Assembly: GCA_016840165.1 (NCBI GenBank)
Contig: JAEOSU010000015.1
Coordinates: forward strand, 1-15,058
Length of the DNA stretch: 15,058 nt
Reading direction: 5' to 3'
Origin: Promethearchaeota archaeon
GTDB lineage: Archaea; Asgardarchaeota; Lokiarchaeia; Sigyniarchaeales; SOKP01
This document shows, piece by piece, positions 167-9,111 of this stretch. The translations under genes and the position numbers were made by a program. Positions within the stretch are counted from its first letter, which is position 1. Each line of letters begins with the position of its first letter. The notes beneath the pieces were generated by a model, which saw nothing but the letters and a program-made list of their open reading frames with translations, was not told where the DNA came from and searched no databases.

Positions 167-1795
167 ATGATTTCTAATGAATCTTTATTTTCGAATATTG
201 GCATCGATTCTGTGGGATTTTACGCTCCAAAAGGCTATATGAAGCTATATGACCTAGCAATAGAACGACAAGAGGATCCTGATAAATATCGGAAGGGTTT
301 AATGGCGTTAGAGATGAGATTGCCTGAAGTTGATGAAGACATAATTTCAATTGGATTAAAAGCAGGATATAATGCCCTACAAAGGGGGGGAATAAACCCA
401 AAAAGCATAGATGCTTTATTTGTTGGAACTGAAACGATTACCTATAGTGTGAAGAGCGTATCGAATATATTTGCAGAGTTGTTGGGAACGTCGACATATT
501 CGCTTACACAAGATTGTTATAATGCGTGTGCTGGTGGAACGCTAGCTTTACTTAATGCTATCGCTCTAATTGAAAAAGATGTGATAAAGCGTGCTCTTAT
601 AATAAGCGCGGATATTTCTTCATATGGGCTCGGAACCCCTAGTGAACCTACTCAAGGCTCAGGGGCAGTTGCTCTAGTAATTTCAAAAAATCCTCGGGTC
701 GCCGCTTTTAGTGAAAAATTTGGAAAAGTGTCTGGAAACGTCGATGATTTCTTTCGACCTGCCTATGAAAAAGACGCGAAAGCATTTGGTCGTTATTCAG
801 TAGATACCTACCTTAATTTTCAGTTACAAGCTTATGATGATTTAATTGAAAGTATAGGAGATTTTCATGCTGATTTTTATACCTTTCATGCACCATATTC
901 AAAATTACCCATTAAATGCATGCAACAAATTATTCAAAAACGTTGGATAAAACATATTAATAATCTTCCTAAGTTGAATAAAAATCAAATAGGTTCATCA
1001 ATCCTTAAAAAGCTTGATTCTTTTATGCATGATCTTACTATTTTACCAGAATGGTTATATTTAAAGCTAAGAGAAAGGGGATATTCTTCAGAATCATTAG
1101 AGAAAGTATCTTATAAGCTTATTAGAAATTTTAAAGGGAAAGTCCTTCCCCAATTAAGAGTTCCTTCCCATTTTGGCAATATGTATAATGCATCAATTTG
1201 GGCTCAAATTATTTATATTTTAGAAGAATATGCTCGTGTAAACGATATCATCTATTTCGGTTCCTATGGTTCAGGAGCGACATGTATTTCTGGTTTGCTA
1301 AAAGTGCAGCCAAAATTTGAAGGGATAGTGAGCAAAGCTCCCACGATTAACGATTTTATCAATAATAAAGTACGTAAAAGTGTACAAGAGTATGAAATAT
1401 TAAAAGAAGGAAAAACTTTTCCGAAGGTTTTATTAGGTGAAATTGTGGAGCATGAAAATAATAATCATCGAGGATTTACGCTTCATTTTTGTGATAAAGG
1501 CTGTATTATCCCGAGTATAAAAGGATTAGATCATTGTCCTAAAGGTCATAGCGGTTTTCACGAAATGTTCTTTCCTCTTTTCGCAGTTTTGAAATCAAAA
1601 CCAATAATCCATACGAATAATGGAGATCTTAGTCATCTTATGAAAGGTTTAGTAAGGATTAATGGCGATGTGTCAAAAGGGGCTGCGTTAGAATATGAAA
1701 TACGACGCATAGAGAATAAGAATGAAACAAATCCAAATGCTATTGGTTTATTGAATTGGACACCTGTTTATATTCCTACTAATATTTTATATTAA
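167..1795 (+). CDS. mvaS: Hydroxymethylglutaryl-CoA synthase (MvaS-like) with internal insertion and C-terminal Zn-ribbon/OB (DUF35-like) extension
   Basis: MvaS-like N-terminus IGIDSVGFYAP...DLA...DPDKY.KGL. Catalytic motifs VGTE(89)T, NAC(121)AGGT, EPTQGSGAVA, DFFRP, FH(241)APY, GN(338)MYNAS and SYGSG. About 120 extra C-terminal residues contain C442/C446/C457/H461. Confidence 0.92.
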   Translation: MISNESLFSNIGIDSVGFYAPKGYMKLYDLAIERQEDPDKYRKGLMALEMRLPEVDEDIISIGLKAGYNALQRGGINPKSIDALFVGTETITYSVKSVSNIFAELLGTSTYSLTQDCYNACAGGTLALLNAIALIEKDVIKRALIISADISSYGLGTPSEPTQGSGAVALVISKNPRVAAFSEKFGKVSGNVDDFFRPAYEKDAKAFGRYSVDTYLNFQLQAYDDLIESIGDFHADFYTFHAPYSKLPIKCMQQIIQKRWIKHINNLPKLNKNQIGSSILKKLDSFMHDLTILPEWLYLKLRERGYSSESLEKVSYKLIRNFKGKVLPQLRVPSHFGNMYNASIWAQIIYILEEYARVNDIIYFGSYGSGATCISGLLKVQPKFEGIVSKAPTINDFINNKVRKSVQEYEILKEGKTFPKVLLGEIVEHENNNHRGFTLHFCDKGCIIPSIKGLDHCPKGHSGFHEMFFPLFAVLKSKPIIHTNNGDLSHLMKGLVRINGDVSKGAALEYEIRRIENKNETNPNAIGLLNWTPVYIPTNILY

Positions 1796-1910: not shown

Positions 1911-3191
1911 ATGAAGAAATTTAGATCAGACGTTTCTGGTTTTTACAAACTTTCTATGGAAGAAAGATTAAAGCTTCTTTCTGAACTTGTACTTCTCACA
2001 CAGGATGAACAATTAATTCTTCGAAATTTGGGTTATTTTAAGACTTCCCAAATCGATACCCTTATAGAAAATGTAATCGGAAGCTTCCAACTTCCACTTG
2101 GTATTGCATTTAATTTTAGAATTAATGACAAGGATTATTTAATTCCTATGGCAATAGAAGAACCTTCAGTAGTAGCCGCGGCATCAAATGCTGCTAAAAT
2201 GGCAAGAAAGCATGGAGGTTTTTACTCAGAAAAAGTTAATTCAGTTATGATTTCTCAAATTCAAATTACTCAAATAGACAATATTGAAGACGCTAAAAAT
2301 ATCTTGATCAAGAATAAAGATGAAATTTTAGCTTTAGCAAATGAGCAAGATCCCCTTTTAAATAAATTAGGCGGAGGTGCTATTGACCTTGAAATCAGGG
2401 AAATTACCACTCGTAAAGGGAAAATGTTAATAGTGCATCTTCTTGTTAATGTATTAGATGCAATGGGCGCTAATGTAGTAAATACGATGGCCGAAGCAGT
2501 CACACCTTATTTAGAGAAACTTTCTGGAGGAAAAATTTATTTACGTATTGTTTCTAATTTAGCTACTGAGCGAATCGCTAGGTGTAAGGCAGTCTTTGAT
2601 AAGGAATCATTAGGGGGAGAAGAAGTAGTTGAGGGCATCTTAAATGCTTATGAGTTTGCTCTTGCAGATCCCTATAGAGCAACCACTCACAATAAAGGGA
2701 TAATGAATGGTATCTCTGCTCTTGCCTTAGCTACTGGGAATGACACTCGCGCTATTGAGGCAGGAGCTCATGCTTATGCCTCACTTGGGGGGAGATATGA
2801 ACCTTTAACAAAATTTAATACAGATTCTGAAGGAAATTTGATAGGAGAGATTGAATTGCCTTTAGCTTTAGGGATTATCGGTGGCATGACAAAAGTACAT
2901 CCCATGGCAAAATTAGCCTTAAAAATATTAAACGTATCATCCTCAGAAGAATTATCACAAGTTGCCGCAGCTCTCGGTTTAGCTCAAAATGTTGCGGCCT
3001 TGAGGGCATTAGCTTCTGAAGGGATTCAAAAAGGTCATATGGCATTACATTCCAGAAACATAGCTAAGATCGCAGGGGTGCCAGATAATTTAGTTGAAAA
3101 AGTGGCGCAAAAATTAATTCAAGATAAAAAAATACGTATAGATTACGCAAAAGAAATTTTAAATAAAATAAAGGAAGGAGAAATACTTTAG
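1911..3191 (+). CDS. mvaA: Class II (bacterial-type) HMG-CoA reductase
   Basis: Class II signatures SGFYKLS..ER, IENVIG, EEPSVVAAASNAAK, DAMGAN, SNLA, RATTHNKGIMNG and EGIQKGHMALH; 426 aa. Confidence 0.95.
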   Translation: MKKFRSDVSGFYKLSMEERLKLLSELVLLTQDEQLILRNLGYFKTSQIDTLIENVIGSFQLPLGIAFNFRINDKDYLIPMAIEEPSVVAAASNAAKMARKHGGFYSEKVNSVMISQIQITQIDNIEDAKNILIKNKDEILALANEQDPLLNKLGGGAIDLEIREITTRKGKMLIVHLLVNVLDAMGANVVNTMAEAVTPYLEKLSGGKIYLRIVSNLATERIARCKAVFDKESLGGEEVVEGILNAYEFALADPYRATTHNKGIMNGISALALATGNDTRAIEAGAHAYASLGGRYEPLTKFNTDSEGNLIGEIELPLALGIIGGMTKVHPMAKLALKILNVSSSEELSQVAAALGLAQNVAALRALASEGIQKGHMALHSRNIAKIAGVPDNLVEKVAQKLIQDKKIRIDYAKEILNKIKEGEIL

Positions 3192-3280: not shown

Positions 3281-4582
3281 ATGGTATTTAGAGATTATAT
3301 AAAAAAAATTGAAGAGGAAGGACTTCTTCGAAATGTAAATACGGAAGTTTCTAAAAAATTAGAGATTTCTGGTATTTTAAAAGCGATTGAACCAACTCCC
3401 GTGATTTTCAATAAAGTAAAGGAATCAAAGTATCGAGTTGTTGGCAATTTATATTGTACTAAGGATGCAATTGCTTCATACTTCGGAGTAAGCCCTACTG
3501 ATCTTATACCCATGCTAAGCAAGGCAATTACGGAGCGATCTGACCCTGAGGAAATATCTAAAGCACCCTGTCAAGAAGTAATAGAACCAAGTATAGATTT
3601 AGATAAATTACCGATATTATTTCATTGTGAAAAGGACGGAGGAAATTACATCAGTTCTGCAGTTGTTGTTACAAGAGATCCGGAATATGGTCAAAATTTA
3701 GATTTTCATCGAGCAATGCAGTTTTCCAAGGATAAATTTGCTACTCGAATTGTGAGAGGACGTAATTTTCATACCTTTTTAGAAAGAAACGATGAGCTTG
3801 AGGTAGCCTTTTGTATAGGAAATACTCCAAATATTATGATAGCTGGGGCAACATCCGTTGATATAGGTATTGATGAACTAACTATTGCAAATGCATTAGA
3901 ACCTATCAAGGTTGTGAAAGCAAATTCGGTGGATCTATATATTCCCGCAGAAGCTGAGTTTGTGTTAGAGGGAAAGGTTTATTTAGAAGAAAAACACACT
4001 GAAGGACCTTTTGTAGATCTTACTGAAACGTATGATACTATTCGAGAGGAACCTGTATTCGAAGTGAAAAAAATTACTCATAGAAAAAATGCAATCTGGC
4101 AAGCGTTATTGCCTGGAGCATTAGAACATAAAATTTTAATGGGAATGCCGAGAGAACCTACCATCTTTAAAAAGGTAAACGAGAATGGGGTTAAATGTTT
4201 GGATGTAAATGTAAATCCTGGAGGATGCTCATGGCTCCATGCAATCGTTCAGATTGATAAAAAATCAGAAGAAGATGGTAAAAAAGCAATTAAAGGAGCC
4301 TTTGAGGGGCATACTAGTTGTAAGCATGTTTTTATTGTTGATAGAGATATAAATATTTATGATCCCCTTTCTGTAGAATGGGCAATGGCAACTCGATTTC
4401 AGGGTGATGAACGTATTGTGATAAAGGATAAAGAGCCGGGAAGCAGTCTAGATCCGAGTGCTGAACCTGGAACAAAAATGACAACGAAAATAGGGTTTGA
4501 TTTAACAAAACCCTTAGTAGTTAAGGGGAAGAGTTTTGATATTGCAGAATTTCCTCAAGTAGATTTAAGTAAATACTTTTAA
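3281..4582 (+). CDS. UbiD-family prFMN-dependent decarboxylase, most likely trans-anhydromevalonate 5-phosphate decarboxylase
   Basis: UbiD motifs LDKLPIL..EKDGGNYI, PAEAEFVLEG, EGPFVD, VDRDINIYD...VEWAMATRF, SSLDPS and KIGFDLT. The specific function is inferred from its position among AcnX, mvk and ipk, with ubiX nearby. Confidence 0.88.
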   Translation: MVFRDYIKKIEEEGLLRNVNTEVSKKLEISGILKAIEPTPVIFNKVKESKYRVVGNLYCTKDAIASYFGVSPTDLIPMLSKAITERSDPEEISKAPCQEVIEPSIDLDKLPILFHCEKDGGNYISSAVVVTRDPEYGQNLDFHRAMQFSKDKFATRIVRGRNFHTFLERNDELEVAFCIGNTPNIMIAGATSVDIGIDELTIANALEPIKVVKANSVDLYIPAEAEFVLEGKVYLEEKHTEGPFVDLTETYDTIREEPVFEVKKITHRKNAIWQALLPGALEHKILMGMPREPTIFKKVNENGVKCLDVNVNPGGCSWLHAIVQIDKKSEEDGKKAIKGAFEGHTSCKHVFIVDRDINIYDPLSVEWAMATRFQGDERIVIKDKEPGSSLDPSAEPGTKMTTKIGFDLTKPLVVKGKSFDIAEFPQVDLSKYF

Positions 4583-4596
4583 TTAAAGAGGAATTA

Positions 4597-5793
4597 ATGA
4601 TGAAATTAACTACAGAAGAACAAGAAATGTTAGAAGGGAAGTATGGAAAAGCTGCAAAGAAATCAATGGAAATTTTAACCACTTTAGGCGATATATTTGA
4701 AGCCGATTCAATGGTCAAAGTTTACGGAGTACAAATTGCGGGTGTTTCTTATGCGAATCTTGGTGAAGCTGGATTAGAATTTTTAAGCGAAATGGCAGAA
4801 GATGGAAAGGTAAGAGTGTTAACAACCTTAAATCCCGCGGGAATGGATCGTGAAAATTGGCAAGCTTTAGGAATAGATGAGGAATTTGCTAAAAATCAAA
4901 ATCGAGTGATTGATGCCTTTGCTAAAATGGGCATAATTACTACCTGCTCGTGTACACCATATTTGATTGGAAATACGCCACATTATGGACAACATCTCGC
5001 ATGGGCCGAGAGTAGTGCAGTTTGCTATGCAAATTCCGTTATAGGCGCTCGGACCAATCGTGAAGGTGGTCCTAGTGCTCTTGCTTCTGCAATCACTGGA
5101 AAGACTCCTAATTATGGGTATCACTTAGATGCTAACAGATATAGTCAGGTTCACTTTAAAGTAAACACTCCAATTAGAGGGACCGATCAATTTGGCATAT
5201 TAGGAAAGATAATCGGGGACAAATTAGTGGAAATAGGAAAAAAAATACCTTACATCTCAGGAATACCAATTGCTACTATAGAAGAATTAAAATCCTTTTG
5301 CGCTTCGGTTGCCACATATGGAGGAACAGCATTATTCCATATGGAGGAAATCACTCCAGAATATGATAGATACCCAAAACCTAGCGATAACGTATTTAAA
5401 ATTGATAAGGACGATATGAATCAAGCCCGATTGGAGCTTATTGATGAGGATAGTGAAATAGACTTTGTCAGCATCGGATGTCCTCATGCATCTATCCACG
5501 AAATAGCTACTATTGCAGAGTTGTTAGAAGGAAAAAAAATCAAAAAAGAATTTTGGATAACTACAGCTAGACCAACGAAGAAATTAGCAGATGCTGCAGG
5601 ATATTCTAAATTAATTGAAGATGCAGGTGCTAAATTCGCAGCAGATACTTGTTGCGTAGTCGCTCCAATTAAAGGACGTTTTAAAGGAATCATGGTTGAT
5701 TCAGCAAAAGCATGTTATTACGGTCGAGCTAAAAATAAATTCAAAGTAAGAATTGGTACATTGGAACAATGTGTTGAGGAGGCAATAAAATGA
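4597..5793 (+). CDS. Aconitase X catalytic (large, DUF521) subunit = phosphomevalonate dehydratase large subunit
   Basis: LT.EE..ML.G..G N-terminus, TTLNP, TCSCTPY, AWAESSA, NSVIGARTNREG, GCPHAS and DTCCVVAP, with Fe-S Cys ligands present. Its stop overlaps the next start (ATGA 5790-5793). Confidence 0.92.
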   Translation: MMKLTTEEQEMLEGKYGKAAKKSMEILTTLGDIFEADSMVKVYGVQIAGVSYANLGEAGLEFLSEMAEDGKVRVLTTLNPAGMDRENWQALGIDEEFAKNQNRVIDAFAKMGIITTCSCTPYLIGNTPHYGQHLAWAESSAVCYANSVIGARTNREGGPSALASAITGKTPNYGYHLDANRYSQVHFKVNTPIRGTDQFGILGKIIGDKLVEIGKKIPYISGIPIATIEELKSFCASVATYGGTALFHMEEITPEYDRYPKPSDNVFKIDKDDMNQARLELIDEDSEIDFVSIGCPHASIHEIATIAELLEGKKIKKEFWITTARPTKKLADAAGYSKLIEDAGAKFAADTCCVVAPIKGRFKGIMVDSAKACYYGRAKNKFKVRIGTLEQCVEEAIK

Positions 5794-6179
5794 AATTAAT
5801 CGGAAGAAAAATATATAAAGGGATTGCTGAAGCTGAGGCTATAGTTACTAAAGATGGTATTTCATTTTATGGTGGTATTGATCCTGATACCGGAAAAGTA
5901 GTCGAAGTAGGACATGAGTTAGAAGGACAAACAATTTCTGGAAAAGTGCTTGTATTTCCCTCGGGAAAAGGGTCAACAGTCGGTTCATATACTATGTACA
6001 GAATGATGAAAAATAAAAATGCGCCAGCAGCAATTGTTAACAAGGAGATCGATACCATAATCGCTGTAGGATGTATTATCAGTGAAATTCCGTGCGTTGA
6101 TAAAATCGAGATTGATAAAATTAAAACTGGTCAAAATTTAATTGTAAATGGAATGGAAGGAACGGTTGAGGTGAAATAA
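5790..6179 (+). CDS. Aconitase X swivel (small, DUF126) subunit = phosphomevalonate dehydratase small subunit
   Basis: ISFYGGIDPDTG, GKVLVFP.GKGSTVGSY (catalytic Ser motif) and APAAIV; 129 aa, translationally coupled to the large subunit. Confidence 0.92.
   Translation: MKLIGRKIYKGIAEAEAIVTKDGISFYGGIDPDTGKVVEVGHELEGQTISGKVLVFPSGKGSTVGSYTMYRMMKNKNAPAAIVNKEIDTIIAVGCIISEIPCVDKIEIDKIKTGQNLIVNGMEGTVEVK
6168..6174 (+). promoter_or_regulatory. Shine-Dalgarno for the mevalonate kinase start at 6180
   Basis: GAGGTGA at 6168-6174, 5 nt before ATG 6180. The upstream stop TAA (6177-6179) abuts this ATG. Confidence 0.7.
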
Positions 6180-7146
6180 ATGGGAATTGGAAAAGGTTTT
6201 GGGAAGACCATACTATTTGGCGAAATTTATCTCCTACGTAAAGAATAAACGTCAACATTTTGTAGTTTATGGACTTCCAGCTATTGCATCTGCATTAGGG
6301 ACATATACAATAGCTCAAGTAAATGTTATAGAAGGTAATGGATGGACTGTCGATGATCAAAGACCAGCAACTCCTGGGTACAAGAAAGTAAAATATAAAG
6401 ATGCAATGCAATCCATTGAAAATGTGCTCAGTTATTTAAATATTAAAACTAATGATAACAGGCTTCAAATAGAATTCTCTGGAGACTTAGTAGCTGCAAG
6501 CGGCGTAGGTGCATCTGCTGCTCAATGTACCTCCTTAGCTCGCGCATTAAACGATACATTTAAAATTGACTTAGATGATGAACAGATAAATAATGCTGCT
6601 TATGAAGGTGAAAAAGCCTATCATGGAACGCCATCAGGTATAGATAATACAGCTTCGACCTATGGTGGTTTAATTTGGTTTGTTAAAAATTTGAGTGGTG
6701 GCAAGAACACTATGGAGCTCTTGAAATCTCCCATAAAAATACCTTTAGTAATTGGCAATACCGGTATAACCGCATCAACAACAGAGGTAGTGGCTGATGT
6801 ACGAAAATCAAAAGACAATGACCCCGTAAAATTTGAAAAAATCTTTAAAATATATAAGAATTTAGTAGAAGAGGCAAAACAAGCATTATTAGCAGGAGAT
6901 ATTAATATAATTGGTTCTTTACTTAATCAAAATCACAAATTATTACAAGAAATAAATGTATCGGGAGATTTGAATGATAAATTGGTGAAGATCGCTTTAG
7001 ATAACGGTGCTGTTGGAGCTAAAATGACGGGAACAGGAAGAGGAGGATTGATTATCGCTCTAGCGGAAAATCGTAATATTCAAGAACAAATTTCTAAAGC
7101 AATCATAAAAAAAGGATTTAATGCATGGAATACTAATATAGGATAA
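6180..7146 (+). CDS. mvk: Mevalonate kinase (GHMP family), split gene: join(6180..6224,6256..7146), 311 aa after removal of a 31-nt intron
   Basis: Exon 1 reads MGIGKGFGKTILFGE and exon 2 reads HFVVYGLPAIA..., rebuilding GHMP motif I (GKxILFGEHxVVYG). Also present: GDLVAASGVGASAA (motif II), HGTPSGIDN and AKMTGTGRGG (motif III). The ORF-track version starting at TTG 6187 has a non-homologous 23-aa N-terminus. Confidence 0.9.
6225..6255 (+). other. Putative archaeal bulge-helix-bulge (BHB) pre-mRNA intron, 31 nt (ATTTATCTCCTACGTAAAGAATAAACGTCAA)
   Basis: Central 4-bp helix GGCG(6219-6222)/CGUC(6250-6253) with 3-nt bulges AA^A(6223-6225) and AA^C(6254-6256). Intron stem UUUAU(6226-6230)/AUAAA(6245-6249). 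Cutting after the second bulge nucleotide on each strand removes exactly 6225-6255 and restores GGC GAA CAT (G-E-H). Confidence 0.85.
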
Positions 7147-7161
7147 AAGAGTATTAATTTC

Positions 7162-7974
7162 ATGGACACCAAAGAATTATTTATTTTAAAATTGGGAGGC
7201 AGTCTTCTAACTGATAAAAGTCAACCCAACTCGATTCGAAAGGATATGGTAAAACAGGTTGTTCAACAAATAATCGATGCTCATGAAAGATTAATAGTCA
7301 TTCATGGAGGTGGGTCTTTTGGGCATCCTCTTGCAAAAAAGTATCATATCTCTAATGGACTAAATAAAACTATCCCAAAACAAATTCTTGGACTTACAGA
7401 GACCCACCAAGCGATGAATAAATTTAACTCCTTTATAATGAATGCATTCTTAGAAAAAAGTTATCCAACTTTATCGATTCAAACTTCCAGTTTATTTATT
7501 CAAGAATCTCAAAAAATTTTAACGCATTCAATTGATATTATAGAAACTACCTTAGACCTTAATATATTACCTATCTTATATGGCGATATAATTCTTGATA
7601 AGAGTGGTTCGTTCTCAATAATTTCAGGAGATCAAATAATATTTCAACTTTGTGAACATTTGAAAAAATATCATATCTCAAAAATCATTTTTGCAATGGA
7701 AGTTGATGGAATCTATCTTGATGAGAGAGATGGTAATGGGAAATATAAACTAGCGAAAAATATTTATGCGAATGAGCTAAATAATTTAAGGTTAGCAGAT
7801 TTAGGCCAGAAAATAGATGTAACTGGTGGAATAAAAGGTAAAATCGAAAATATAAAGAAAATGTTAACCTATAACATCCCTATTCAATTGATTAATGGAT
7901 TGAATGAAGGATATATAATGAAGGCTTTGAAAAATCAGCCTATTAATTGTACAAATATATTAACTAATAAGTGA
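7162..7974 (+). CDS. ipk: Isopentenyl phosphate kinase (amino-acid kinase family)
   Basis: ILKLGGSLLTDK, IHGGGSFGH (IPK His), PILYGD, IISGD and DVTGGIKGK; lies between mvk and fni. Confidence 0.92.
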   Translation: MDTKELFILKLGGSLLTDKSQPNSIRKDMVKQVVQQIIDAHERLIVIHGGGSFGHPLAKKYHISNGLNKTIPKQILGLTETHQAMNKFNSFIMNAFLEKSYPTLSIQTSSLFIQESQKILTHSIDIIETTLDLNILPILYGDIILDKSGSFSIISGDQIIFQLCEHLKKYHISKIIFAMEVDGIYLDERDGNGKYKLAKNIYANELNNLRLADLGQKIDVTGGIKGKIENIKKMLTYNIPIQLINGLNEGYIMKALKNQPINCTNILTNK

Positions 7975-7983
7975 TTTTAAAGT

Positions 7984-9111
7984 ATGACAAGTTCAAAAGA
8001 TGAAAAAGATAAAAAGCACGAATTAAATCAATCAAATGATATAATGCGAAGAAAATTGGAGCATCTCAAGATTCCTATTGAATATAATGTACAACATAAG
8101 GAAAATTATTTTGAAGATATAAAATTACTCCATCATTCTGCTCCAGAGGTAAATTTTGAGGAAGTCAATTTATCAACTAAATTCTTTAATAAACTCATTT
8201 CAGCACCCATATGCATCACAGCGATCACAGGAGGACACCCAATTTCTAAGGAAATAAATGAAACCTTAGCTAAAGCAGCAGAAAAAGAAAAAATTATTAT
8301 GAGTGTGGGAAGTCAACGAGTTGGATTAATAGATCCTGATTCAATTGAATCTTTTAAAGTTGTAAGAAAAGTAGCTCCCAATATTCCTCTAATTGGAAAT
8401 ATTGGTATTGGTCAAATAAGCAGTCCTGATTTTAATCTTGAAGATTTTGAGGAATATATTGATATGATTAAAGCTGATATAATGGCAATTCATTTCAATG
8501 CGTTGCATGAACTTGTACAAGATGAGGGAGATATTTCTTACAAGAATTTTCGCAAAAATTTTCGTCTGATACGGGAAAAATATAAGATTCCTATAATTGC
8601 AAAAGAAGTAGGAACGGGATTAAATTCGGAATTGACTTCCGTTTTAGATGGACTCGGATTTGATGGATTTGATGTGGGAGGTACTGGAGGAACAAGTTTC
8701 GCTGCTATAGAAGAAAGACGCAATAAATATAACTCAGAAAAATATACGAGAAATCCTGCAGAAGTATTTAGGGAATGGGGGATACCTACACCAGTTAGCA
8801 TTATATATGCGAGAAAAGTATCGCAAAAACCTATTATAGCTACAGGAGGGTTAAGAACAGGAATAGATATTGCAAAATCGATTGCACTTGGGGCCGATCT
8901 AGGTGGTTTTGCGTATAAATTTCTCTTGACAGCATGGGATGATATTAAAAATCATAGTGGTGATACTACTCTAAAAGAAATAGTAACACTAAAAAATGAA
9001 TTGCGATCGAGTTTATGGTTAATGAATATTCAAAATATTGAACACTTGAAATTAAATACGAAAAAGTATGTAATCCTTGGAAAATTATATCAATGGATTC
9101 ATCAGAAATAA
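7984..9111 (+). CDS. fni: Type 2 (FMN-dependent) isopentenyl-diphosphate delta-isomerase
   Basis: RKLEHL, ITAITGG, GSQR, IGNIG, HFNALHE, AKEVG.G, GGTSF, WGIPT and ATGGLR.G.DIAKSIALGA. Confidence 0.93.
   Translation: MTSSKDEKDKKHELNQSNDIMRRKLEHLKIPIEYNVQHKENYFEDIKLLHHSAPEVNFEEVNLSTKFFNKLISAPICITAITGGHPISKEINETLAKAAEKEKIIMSVGSQRVGLIDPDSIESFKVVRKVAPNIPLIGNIGIGQISSPDFNLEDFEEYIDMIKADIMAIHFNALHELVQDEGDISYKNFRKNFRLIREKYKIPIIAKEVGTGLNSELTSVLDGLGFDGFDVGGTGGTSFAAIEERRNKYNSEKYTRNPAEVFREWGIPTPVSIIYARKVSQKPIIATGGLRTGIDIAKSIALGADLGGFAYKFLLTAWDDIKNHSGDTTLKEIVTLKNELRSSLWLMNIQNIEHLKLNTKKYVILGKLYQWIHQK

What the first reader, a model, noticed from the sequence alone, without database searches (positions are those of the whole stretch)
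6219..6257. Candidate BHB (tRNA-type) intron inside the mevalonate kinase mRNA
Seen: ATG 6180 has an SD, abuts the upstream stop and reads MGIGKGFGKTILFGE. A 31-nt insert follows (not a multiple of 3, in-frame TAA at 6246-6248), and then HFVVYGLPAIA resumes in another frame. The insert and flanks fold into a 4-bp helix GGCG/CGUC with opposing 3-nt bulges AAA (6223-6225) and AAC (6254-6256), plus an intron stem UUUAU/AUAAA. Established: archaeal splicing endonuclease (EndA) cuts after the second nucleotide of each BHB bulge and RtcB ligates. Applying that rule gives 6224|6225 and 6255|6256, which reconstitutes the conserved GEH motif without adjustment. The well-characterised archaeal mRNA intron I know of is in crenarchaeal cbf5, and I know of none in a mevalonate-pathway gene. 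Inference: enzymatic pre-mRNA splicing of a core lipid-precursor gene, probably in an Asgard archaeon. Caveat: the exon-side closing helix starts with a single U6218-A6257 pair followed by an internal loop, so the motif is a relaxed BHB/BHL.
Basis: partly seen in the sequence, partly recalled or inferred. Interest (0 to 1): 0.97.

Follow-up and report, generated by a model that had tools for sequence, protein, structure and literature searches.

The report
tRNA-type mini-intron in Asgard mevalonate kinase
The only mevalonate kinase gene of this Asgard archaeon is broken by a 31-base insert shaped like an archaeal tRNA intron, so its mRNA almost certainly has to be cut and rejoined before the enzyme can be made; in the papers I could search this is documented for only one other archaeal protein gene (cbf5).

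Summary
ATG 6180 reads MGIGKGFGKTILFGE. A 31-nt insert (6225-6255) then shifts the frame and brings an in-frame TAA, and HFVVYG resumes at 6256. Removing the insert gives a 311-aa mevalonate kinase with its N-terminal motif restored.

The reading as a bulge-helix-bulge (BHB) intron, cut by the tRNA-splicing endonuclease EndA and rejoined by the RNA ligase RtcB, is strongly supported by comparison but not shown at the RNA level.
- Of 93 orthologs in the same Promethearchaeota family, 55 carry a homologous 28-31-nt insert at exactly GE|H and 38 lack it exactly.
- The helices covary.
- Exon codons form a distal exon-exon clamp only in intron-bearing genes.
- Both exons are under the same purifying selection as intronless genes.
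- Independent DNA assemblies contain the insert.
- The genome has one mvk, two EndA paralogs (one lacking the catalytic His) and RtcB.
- RNase HII and EF-2 in the same genome carry similar 30-nt inserts.

The 3' splice site sits in a loop rather than a strict bulge, so the motif is relaxed. No RNA runs were available. This scan has reported similar Asgard mRNA mini-introns on other DNA. The searched literature documents only crenarchaeal cbf5.

The parts
6169..6175 (+). Shine-Dalgarno-like GAGGTGA ahead of the mvk start; the upstream AcnX small-subunit gene stops at 6177-6179.
   Evidence: Read directly. The upstream ORF 5790-6179 matches AcnX_swivel.
6180..6224 (+). Exon 1 of mvk, 15 codons (MGIGKGFGKTILFGE).
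   Evidence: The peptide G.GKG[YF]GKTILFGE is equally conserved in intron-bearing and intronless orthologs. pN/pS is 0.143 in intron-bearing genes.
6202..6211 (+). 5' arm of the distal exon-exon clamp (GGAAGACCAU). It pairs with 6269-6278, with one A-A mismatch at 6207/6273.
   Evidence: 85-nt fold. The 8-bp core 6204-6211/6269-6276 averages 7.71 of 8 pairs in 55 intron-bearing genes and 5.26 of 8 in 38 intronless genes. In phylogenetically independent contrasts the clamp goes with the intron in 5-6 of 6. Synonymous codon choice is fixed only in intron-bearing genes.
6219..6222 (+). 5' strand of the central 4-bp helix H (GGCG, in exon 1).
   Evidence: It pairs with 6250-6253. Family pair 24-54 is CG in 49, UA in 4 and UG in 1. 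The Gly codon is GGC in 50 and GGT in 5 intron-bearing genes but mixed in intronless genes.
6223..6225 (+). 5' three-nucleotide bulge AAA; predicted cut between 6224 and 6225.
   Evidence: Unpaired in the fold. The geometry holds in all 55 aligned inserts.
6225..6255 (+). 31-nt intron with an in-frame TAA at 6246-6248.
   Evidence: A homologous insert is present in 55 of 93 orthologs (50 of 31 nt, 4 of 30, 1 of 28). It is present in independent DNA contigs.
6226..6249 (+). Intron hairpin h'. The arms are 6226-6232 and 6242-6249 (A6244 bulged), with a 9-nt loop.
   Evidence: Family pairs covary: 33-48 is UA 16, CG 9, UG 7, AU 5, and 37-44 is CG 20, UA 11.
6250..6253 (+). 3' strand of the central helix H (CGUC, in the intron).
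6254..6256 (+). 3' 'bulge' AAC; predicted cut between 6255 and 6256. It is really the start of a larger internal loop (6254-6261 or beyond).
   Evidence: Folds. Only U6218-A6257 can close it as a 3-nt bulge. That pair is invariant in the family (pair 21-60), so it gives no covariation evidence either way.
6256..7146 (+). Exon 2 of mvk (296 codons plus the stop at 7144-7146).
   Evidence: It scores 210.9 bits on TIGR00549. dN/dS is 0.136.
6269..6278 (+). 3' arm of the distal exon-exon clamp (AUGGACUUCC).

Best explanation
The 31 nt at 6225-6255 are a splicing-endonuclease (BHB-type) intron in the pre-mRNA of the genome's only mevalonate kinase gene.

In the operon transcript, the end of exon 1 (GGCG) pairs with the 3' end of the intron (CGUC) to form the central helix. 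The intron folds into its own hairpin. A distal helix between exon-1 codons K-T-I and exon-2 codons Y-G-L clamps the two exons together.

The heteromeric EndA is inferred to cut after the second base of the 5' bulge (6224|6225) and at the equivalent position after the central helix (6255|6256). RtcB then joins the exons. The result is GAA|CAT, which restores GKTILFGE-HFVVYG and a 311-aa enzyme. Unspliced RNA would give only a 22-residue peptide.

Shown here:
- the anatomy of the insert;
- its homology and covariation in 55 species;
- exact absence of the insert in 38 species;
- purifying selection on both exons;
- presence of the enzymes.

Inferred: cleavage and ligation themselves, the exact bonds cut, and any regulatory role.
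For: 1. Excision at the sites given by the BHB rule restores the frame and motif I. Exon 1 supplies TIGR00549 profile positions 3-10, which exon 2 lacks. The motif aligns with GKxILFGEHxVV of solved MVKs.
2. 55 of 93 family orthologs carry a homologous 28-31-nt insert at the same phase-0 site, and 38 read GE|H without it.
3. All inserts block translation. The 28- and 31-nt ones shift the frame, and the four 30-nt ones carry in-frame stops. In 21 of 55 there are stops in both frames, so no single frameshift can rescue them.
4. Structure counts: 88.6% of cells are paired against 36-42% for slid partners, and the covariation score is 0.136 against 0.098 (0 of 500 shuffles reach it). There are compensatory changes in H (CG to UA, seen in rows L018, L067, L076 and L107, which do not group together on the gene tree) and in h'.
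5. Synonymous sites of the flanking exons are frozen only in intron-bearing genes. Phe is TTT in 55 of 55 against 15 of 38. Gly is GGC in 50 of 55 against 5 of 38. Lys is AAG in 52 of 55 against 16 of 38. Exon-2 Gly is GGT in 48 of 55 against 6 of 38. The 8-bp clamp goes with the intron in 5-6 of 6 independent contrasts.
6. dN/dS of exon 2 is 0.136 in intron-bearing pairs and 0.130 in intronless pairs, and exon 1 has pN/pS 0.143.
7. There is a single mvk in a genome scored 99.7% complete, inside an archaeal mevalonate-pathway operon.
8. DNA contigs from two other studies contain the insert without gaps.
9. There are two EndA paralogs. One is closest to the catalytic chain of the Aeropyrum pernix heterotetramer and keeps Tyr, His and Lys. 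The other has lost the His. RtcB is present.
10. RNase HII and EF-2 of the same genome have 30-nt stop-bearing inserts with the same geometry inside their Pfam domains.
Against: - No spliced RNA, excised intron or peptide across the junction has been seen.
- The 3' site is not a strict 3-nt bulge. The minimum-energy fold puts it in a 6-8-nt loop.
- The fourth pair of the central helix is a G-A mismatch in 33 of 54 distinct family sequences.
- The BHB conformation is the minimum-energy fold in fewer than half of the 55 sequences, and sits a median of 2.1 kcal/mol above it.
- RNAalifold predicts none of these helices de novo.
- In this genome alone, a +1 frameshift between 6187 and 6246 would also give a full-length protein, with 10 extra residues inside motif I.
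Confidence: 0.85

Rival explanations
1. The insert stays in the mRNA and the ribosome gets past it, either by a programmed +1 frameshift or by translational bypassing (hopping), as in T4 gene 60 or the mitochondrial 'byp' elements.
For: The insert is a short hairpin with an early stop, which resembles bypass elements (my own knowledge of those systems). In this genome the exon-2 frame is open from 6187, so a +1 shift is formally possible.
Against: In 21 of 55 orthologs stops in both frames exclude any single frameshift, and four inserts are 30 nt long with in-frame stops. A frameshift would leave about 10 residues between E and H of an invariant motif. There is no landing codon matching the take-off GAA: the inserts end in CAA, AAT, TAA, TAG, TAT, AAA or TAC. 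Bypassing does not explain covariation between exon 1 and the 3' end of the insert at exactly BHB spacing.
Confidence: 0.03
2. The gene is disabled or truncated. The insert is a neutral or damaging insertion, and MVK is either not made or is made from an internal start without the GKTILFGE segment.
For: Public gene calls treat it this way. The deposited protein starts at TTG 6199 (315 aa) and reads the insert in the exon-2 frame.
Against: It is the only mvk in a near-complete genome, and it lies inside the mevalonate operon. Exon 1 is kept in its own frame with pN/pS 0.143 and the same peptide as in intronless genes. Exon-2 dN/dS equals that of intronless genes. The insert has persisted in 55 species across five genera. 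The segment that would be lost is part of the conserved N-terminal motif of solved MVKs.
Confidence: 0.04
3. The insert is removed from the RNA, but by something other than EndA and RtcB: another nuclease-ligase pair, or an unknown self-processing activity.
For: The 3' site departs from the strict BHB, and the fourth helix pair is often G-A. No enzyme assay exists for this organism.
Against: The spacing of central helix, bulge and hairpin is exactly that of EndA substrates in all 55 sequences. Relaxed bulge-helix-loop substrates are accepted by heteromeric and epsilon-type EndAs according to PMC12397907. The genome has that enzyme type. There is no Rfam family match, and 31 nt is too small for a group I or group II intron.
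Confidence: 0.05
4. The 31 nt are an assembly or sequencing artefact.
For: The window is a whole 15-kb contig of a metagenome-assembled genome.
Against: Contigs from two other studies carry the insert with no gaps: X5 identical over 5900-6259 and 6244-6479, and X6 over the whole stretch with 15 substitutions. One of those substitutions lies inside the insert. Homologous inserts occur in 54 other species' genomes.
Confidence: 0.01

Closest known systems
cbf5 pre-mRNA intron of Crenarchaeota (Aeropyrum pernix, Sulfolobus, Desulfurococcales; Watanabe 2002, Yoshinari 2006, Yokobori 2009 = PMC2738675)
   Same: It is a short intron inside an archaeal protein-coding sequence, bounded by a BHB-like (relaxed) motif that EndA recognises. 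The hosts have a hetero-oligomeric EndA. The intron is inherited within a clade and lost exactly in some lineages (PMC2738675; here).
   Different: The phylum is different (Asgard/Promethearchaeota), and so is the gene (a lipid-precursor enzyme rather than an RNA-modification enzyme). Here the intron is 28-31 nt long. It is polymorphic within genera, needing at least 16 changes on the gene tree, 6 of them forced by well-supported branches. A distal exon-exon clamp encoded in synonymous sites is documented here. Splicing of cbf5 was shown experimentally; this one has not been tested.
Non-canonical archaeal tRNA introns with relaxed bulge-helix-loop motifs, including the heavily interrupted tRNA genes of Asgard archaea (bioRxiv 10.64898/2026.10.13.758758; PMC12397907)
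   Same: The central helix, 3-nt bulge and intron hairpin are the same, and so is the enzyme pair. Most Asgard genomes in that preprint also have two EndA paralogs consistent with an (alpha-beta)2 enzyme.
   Different: The host RNA is an mRNA with no tRNA body to hold the exons together. The exon-exon clamp appears to take that role. That preprint does not mention mRNA at all (0 occurrences).
Other stop-bearing 30-nt inserts in this genome (RNase HII at C100:6689-6718, EF-2 at C1:7920-7949) and similar Asgard cases noted earlier by this scan
   Same: They are 30-31 nt long, have BHB geometry, interrupt invariant motifs, and contain in-frame stops.
   Different: They share no evident sequence with the mvk intron, so they look like separate insertions rather than copies of one element. 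I did not test their conservation.

Membership tests
Archaeal splicing-endonuclease (BHB) intron | A central 4-bp helix formed by the last exon-1 bases before the 5' bulge and the intron bases before the 3' bulge. | tested here: met
   GGCG 6219-6222 pairs with CGUC 6250-6253, with one G-U. In the family three pairs are always formed and one of them covaries (CG 49, UA 4, UG 1). The fourth pair is G-U or G-C in 21 sequences and G-A in 33 of 54.
Archaeal splicing-endonuclease (BHB) intron | A 5' three-nucleotide bulge between the central helix and an intron helix, with the cut after its second base. | tested here: met
   AAA 6223-6225 is followed directly by the hairpin at 6226-6249. The spacing is the same in all 55 inserts. 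The cut itself was not observed.
Archaeal splicing-endonuclease (BHB) intron | A 3' three-nucleotide bulge closed by an exon-exon helix (the strict hBHBh' form). | tested here: not met
   Only one invariant U-A pair (6218-6257) can close it. The folds place the site in a 6-8-nt loop opposite 0-2 nt, and the exons pair only further out, at 6202-6211 with 6269-6278. It therefore fits the relaxed bulge-helix-loop class, not the strict one.
Archaeal splicing-endonuclease (BHB) intron | Excision at the predicted bonds yields a functional RNA. | tested here: met
   The frame and the GKTILFGEHFVVYG motif are restored, giving a 311-aa product equal in length to the intronless orthologs.
Archaeal splicing-endonuclease (BHB) intron | The host encodes EndA and an RtcB ligase. 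| tested here: met
   EndA matches lie at C14:37158-37382 (102 bits) and C4:49673-49921 (72 bits). RtcB lies at C64:11156-12463 (556 bits).
Archaeal splicing-endonuclease (BHB) intron | Spliced RNA and excised intron are observed. | not testable with these tools
   No RNA run holds the stretch. Two junction-pattern scans of metagenome contigs found nothing.
cbf5-type archaeal pre-mRNA intron | The host has a hetero-oligomeric (alpha-beta)2 EndA with broad substrate range. | tested here: inconclusive
   There are two full-length paralogs. One is closest to the Aeropyrum pernix chain 3p1z_B and keeps Tyr, His and Lys. In the other the His aligns to Ser. Assembly of the two into one enzyme and its substrate range were not tested.
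Mevalonate kinase (TIGR00549, GHMP kinase) | A score above the curated cut-off, and the N-terminal GKxILFGEHxVV motif. | tested here: met
   Exon 2 alone scores 210.9 bits against a cut-off of 163.05. Pfam finds the GHMP N and C domains. The motif is complete only after excision.
Programmed translational bypass (T4 gene 60 or byp type) | Matching take-off and landing codons flanking the skipped stretch. | tested here: not met
   The take-off codon would be GAA. No GAA or GAG precedes the His codon in any of the 55 inserts.
Group I or group II self-splicing intron | A ribozyme core of hundreds of nucleotides. | tested here: not met
   The insert is 28-31 nt, and there is no Rfam match at E up to 1 in 5900-6600.

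The most novel reading that the evidence does not exclude
The mvk intron is one visible member of a genome-wide set of EndA-spliced mini-introns in Asgard protein genes. I verified three in this genome (mvk, RNase HII, EF-2), and this scan has noted many more. On this reading, routine enzymatic mRNA splicing, exact intron loss, and exon sequences shaped by splicing signals would all exist in the closest prokaryotic relatives of eukaryotes. In a transcript whose translation is coupled to transcription, the efficiency of splicing could also set the level of MVK relative to the rest of the mevalonate operon.
Probability: 0.55. Interest if true: 0.92.

Novelty: new member of a known kind. Interest (0 to 1): 0.8.

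Why it matters
If the intron is spliced, a core enzyme of archaeal membrane-lipid synthesis depends on the tRNA-splicing machinery in an Asgard archaeon.

- It would extend archaeal mRNA splicing beyond the single published case (cbf5, Crenarchaeota) to the lineage nearest to eukaryotes.
- The 55-with and 38-without data set is a natural experiment. It shows exact intron loss. It also shows selection on synonymous exon sites to build a splicing structure, a feature usually discussed for eukaryotic genes.
- In practical terms, public gene calls for this mvk are wrong. The deposited protein starts at TTG 6199 and lacks the GKTILFGE segment. Metabolic reconstructions or structure predictions built on those models inherit the wrong N-terminus.
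- Gene finders for Asgard genomes need a BHB-aware step.

Tried and rejected
- **RNA evidence.** The look-up of sequencing runs listed no RNA holder.
- **Spliced-junction scans.** Two scans of metagenome contigs for the spliced junction flanked by intron-type exon codons found nothing. Neither result bears on expression.
- **Genome-wide search for further mRNA introns.** I looked for BHB geometry combined with rescue of an open reading frame. There were about 2,700 hits, and as many when the 3' cut was shifted by one base, so there is no excess and the scan is uninformative. Three top in-frame candidates were checked with Pfam. One is the carA/carB gene boundary, one lies between two complete ABC ATPase domains (most likely two adjacent genes), and one has no family. 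EF-2 was recovered by the scan. RNase HII and mvk fall below its exon-length limit.
- **De novo consensus folding.** RNAalifold predicted none of the helices.
- **Single-sequence folding.** The 71-nt fold is not significant (z -0.57). The 85-nt regions of the 55 orthologs average z -2.6 against mononucleotide shuffles.
- **ARAGORN with introns allowed.** It called 118 tRNA genes, 8 with introns, on the whole genome. This is clearly noisy, so I did not use it.
- **Mobile-element reading.** There are no direct repeats or target-site duplication around the insert.
- **Pairing of the intron 5' arm with the start-codon region** (6173-6181 with 6225-6233). This is not conserved in relatives with other start regions, so I dropped it.
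Full report
**What is in the window.** The window is a whole 15,058-bp contig (C87) of a 3.6-Mb, 105-contig genome with 31.6% G+C. Records of related genomes are titled Promethearchaeota archaeon, that is, Asgard.

The plus strand carries an archaeal-type mevalonate operon:
- HMG-CoA synthase, 167-1795
- HMG-CoA reductase, 1911-3191
- a UbiD-like decarboxylase, 3281-4582
- aconitase-X large subunit, 4597-5793, and small subunit, 5790-6179
- a GHMP kinase (mvk)
- an amino-acid-kinase-family protein (isopentenyl phosphate kinase type), 7162-7974
- an FMN-dependent IDI2-like protein, 7984-9111

On the minus strand lie a UbiX-type flavoprotein, a polyprenyl synthetase, a geranylgeranyl-reductase-like flavoprotein and a GH38 mannosidase.

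**The observation.**
- ATG 6180 directly follows the upstream TAA and a GAGGTGA Shine-Dalgarno. It reads MGIGKGFGKTILFGE, then IYLLRKE and a stop at 6246-6248.
- A second frame reads HFVVYGLPAIA from 6256 to the stop at 7144-7146.
- Removing 6225-6255 (31 nt) joins GAA to CAT and gives a 311-aa protein.
- Exon 2 alone passes the mevalonate kinase equivalog TIGR00549 (210.9 bits, cut-off 163.05), but it starts at profile position 11. An uninterrupted ortholog starts at position 3. Exon 1 therefore encodes the missing start of the family profile.
- That segment, GKxILFGEHxVV, aligns with solved mevalonate kinases.

**The RNA shape.**
- GGCG 6219-6222 pairs with CGUC 6250-6253.
- AAA 6223-6225 is bulged.
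- 6226-6232 pairs with 6242-6249 as an intron hairpin.
- The strand order is central helix, then bulge, on both strands. This is the order found at tRNA position 37/38, where the anticodon stem is the outer helix. That statement rests on my knowledge of the anticodon-intron pair rule.
- Cutting after the second bulge base on each side removes exactly 31 nt.
- The 3' side is not a clean 3-nt bulge. The folds put it in a 6-8-nt loop, and only one U-A pair (6218-6257) could close a strict bulge.
- Further out, 6202-6211 pairs with 6269-6278 (9 pairs and one mismatch), which clamps the exons.

**Relatives.** A search of 135 genomes of the same family found 93 mvk orthologs for which the site could be read.
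- 55 carry an insert at exactly the GE|H codon boundary (50 of 31 nt, 4 of 30 nt, 1 of 28 nt). 38 read ...GE-HF... with nothing between.
- The inserts are alignable and so homologous.
- All of them block translation. The four 30-nt inserts have in-frame stops. In 21 of 55, stops in both frames exclude rescue by any single frameshift.

On the 55-sequence alignment, the structure I named has these properties:
- 88.6% of cells are paired, against 36-42% when partners are slid by 1-3 columns.
- The covariation score of 0.136 exceeds all 500 shuffles (mean 0.098).
- The central-helix pair C6221-G6251 is C-G in 49, U-A in 4 and U-G in 1.
- Hairpin pairs show U-A, C-G, U-G and A-U in turn.
- The fourth central-helix pair is a G-A mismatch in 33 of 54 distinct sequences. 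In this genome it is G-C.

**Exons adapted to the intron.** Synonymous sites in the flanking exons are nearly fixed in intron-bearing genes and free in intronless ones:

| Codon | Intron-bearing | Intronless |
|---|---|---|
| Phe TTT | 55 of 55 | 15 of 38 |
| Gly GGC | 50 of 55 | 5 of 38 |
| Lys AAG | 52 of 55 | 16 of 38 |
| Exon-2 Gly GGT | 48 of 55 | 6 of 38 |
| Exon-2 Leu CTT | 50 of 55 | 9 of 38 |

These are the bases of the central helix and of the clamp AAGACCAU/AUGGUCUU. The clamp forms 7.71 of 8 pairs with the intron and 5.26 of 8 without it. In six phylogenetically independent contrasts on well-supported branches the clamp goes with the intron in 5-6 of 6 (median sign-test p about 0.03). 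I take this as the strongest sign that the RNA structure is used.

**Is the gene alive?**
- Pairwise dN/dS of exon 2 has a median of 0.136 among intron-bearing genes and 0.130 among intronless genes.
- The 14 codons before the splice site have pN/pS 0.143 in intron-bearing genes.
- They encode the same peptide, G.GKG[YF]GKTILFGE, as in intronless genes.
- The genome, scored 99.7% complete, has one mvk locus by tblastn.
- The only other GHMP-kinase hit (C30) is an HddA-like sugar kinase that scores 82.6 bits on the MVK model against a cut-off of 163.

**Is the DNA real?** Contigs of runs from two other studies carry the insert without gaps. One is identical. The other has 15 substitutions over 801 nt, including A6255T inside the insert and a synonymous change in exon 1. 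A short contig in the source sample that lacks the insert has three mismatches in 35 nt, so it belongs to an intronless relative.

**History.** On a maximum-likelihood tree of exon-2 proteins, the intron state needs at least 16 changes, of which at least 6 are forced by well-supported branches. Intron-bearing clades lie on both sides of the midpoint root. The intron is present in five of the six genera sampled, and within genera it is polymorphic (g1 21 with and 10 without; g22 26 with and 16 without). One origin followed by repeated exact loss is the simplest reading, since the inserts are homologous. Gene exchange between lineages would blur this, and I used a gene tree rather than a species tree.

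**Machinery.** Both EndA paralogs have the N- and C-terminal EndA domains.
- The first is closest to the catalytic chain of the Aeropyrum pernix heterotetramer (3p1z_B, 135 bits) and keeps the Tyr, His and Lys.
- In the second, the catalytic His aligns to Ser.
- RtcB is present.

This two-paralog arrangement is the one linked to archaeal pre-mRNA splicing in Crenarchaeota (title of Yoshinari 2006 as cited in PMC12397907; PMC2738675). It is reported for most Asgard genomes.

**Context in the genome.** Following leads from earlier notes of this scan, I checked two genes myself.
- The RNase HII Pfam match (C100:6666-7295) has two TAA inside it: GIDEAGR, then a 30-nt insert, then GPVIGP.
- An EF-2-like GTPase domain (C1:7794-8420) has one TAA: TDSD, then a 30-nt insert, then DEEQERG.
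- Both show a 4-bp helix flanked by 3-nt bulges at the right spacing.

My own genome-wide scan could not separate true cases from gene boundaries.

**Literature.** The searches found pre-mRNA BHB introns only for crenarchaeal cbf5 (PMC2738675). A 2025 paper on archaeal splicing endonucleases cites only those three cbf5 papers for mRNA. A 2026 preprint on Asgard tRNA introns does not mention mRNA. No paper combines mevalonate kinase with archaeal splicing. Earlier follow-ups in this scan reported similar mini-introns in other Asgard genes, and one claimed RNA-derived contigs lacking the intron in another genus. I did not test those.

**Verdict.** The motif is a relaxed BHB with an exon-exon clamp. 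It is a new member of a known kind. I give the spliced-intron explanation a confidence of 0.85 and an interest score of 0.8.

Noticed in passing
L002-L005, L047, L062, L074 (intron-bearing) and L053, L073 (intronless), at the position of window 6180-6182: Nine of the 93 family mvk orthologs read ACG where the others have ATG, TTG or GTG. The ACG directly follows the upstream TAA, and exon 1 has no other canonical start. This could be near-cognate initiation or termination-reinitiation.
   Followed up: no
window 6199-7143: The public gene call for this mvk starts at TTG 6199 (315 aa; a 319-aa cluster member is named mevalonate kinase by JGI/IMG). It reads the intron in the exon-2 frame and lacks GKTILFGE.
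   Followed up: yes
G000:C100:6689-6718 and G000:C1:7920-7949: RNase HII and an EF-2-like gene of the same genome each carry a 30-nt insert with in-frame TAA and BHB geometry, inside their Pfam domain matches.
   Followed up: partly
L035:156-1088 (intronless ortholog) and window 6256-7143: The closest solved relative of this MVK type is the Leishmania major enzyme 2hfs (262 bits), far above archaeal MVKs such as 6mde and 4hac (about 110 bits). Some genomes of the same genus and order instead have an MVK only 33-35% identical.
   Followed up: no
window 6254-6288, run X1 record 3: The source sample also holds a low-depth contig of an intronless relative allele (...TTTGGTG then AACATTTT...), so intron-bearing and intronless species co-occur in that sample.
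   Followed up: no
G007:C117:4489-5099 (L022): The mvk of the closest relative (89-92% identity) matches in two pieces, query residues 1-121 and 247-296. The cause was not examined.
   Followed up: no
window 167-1795: The HMG-CoA synthase ORF is 542 aa, but its Pfam domains end near residue 373. The C-terminal 170 residues or so are unassigned.
   Followed up: no
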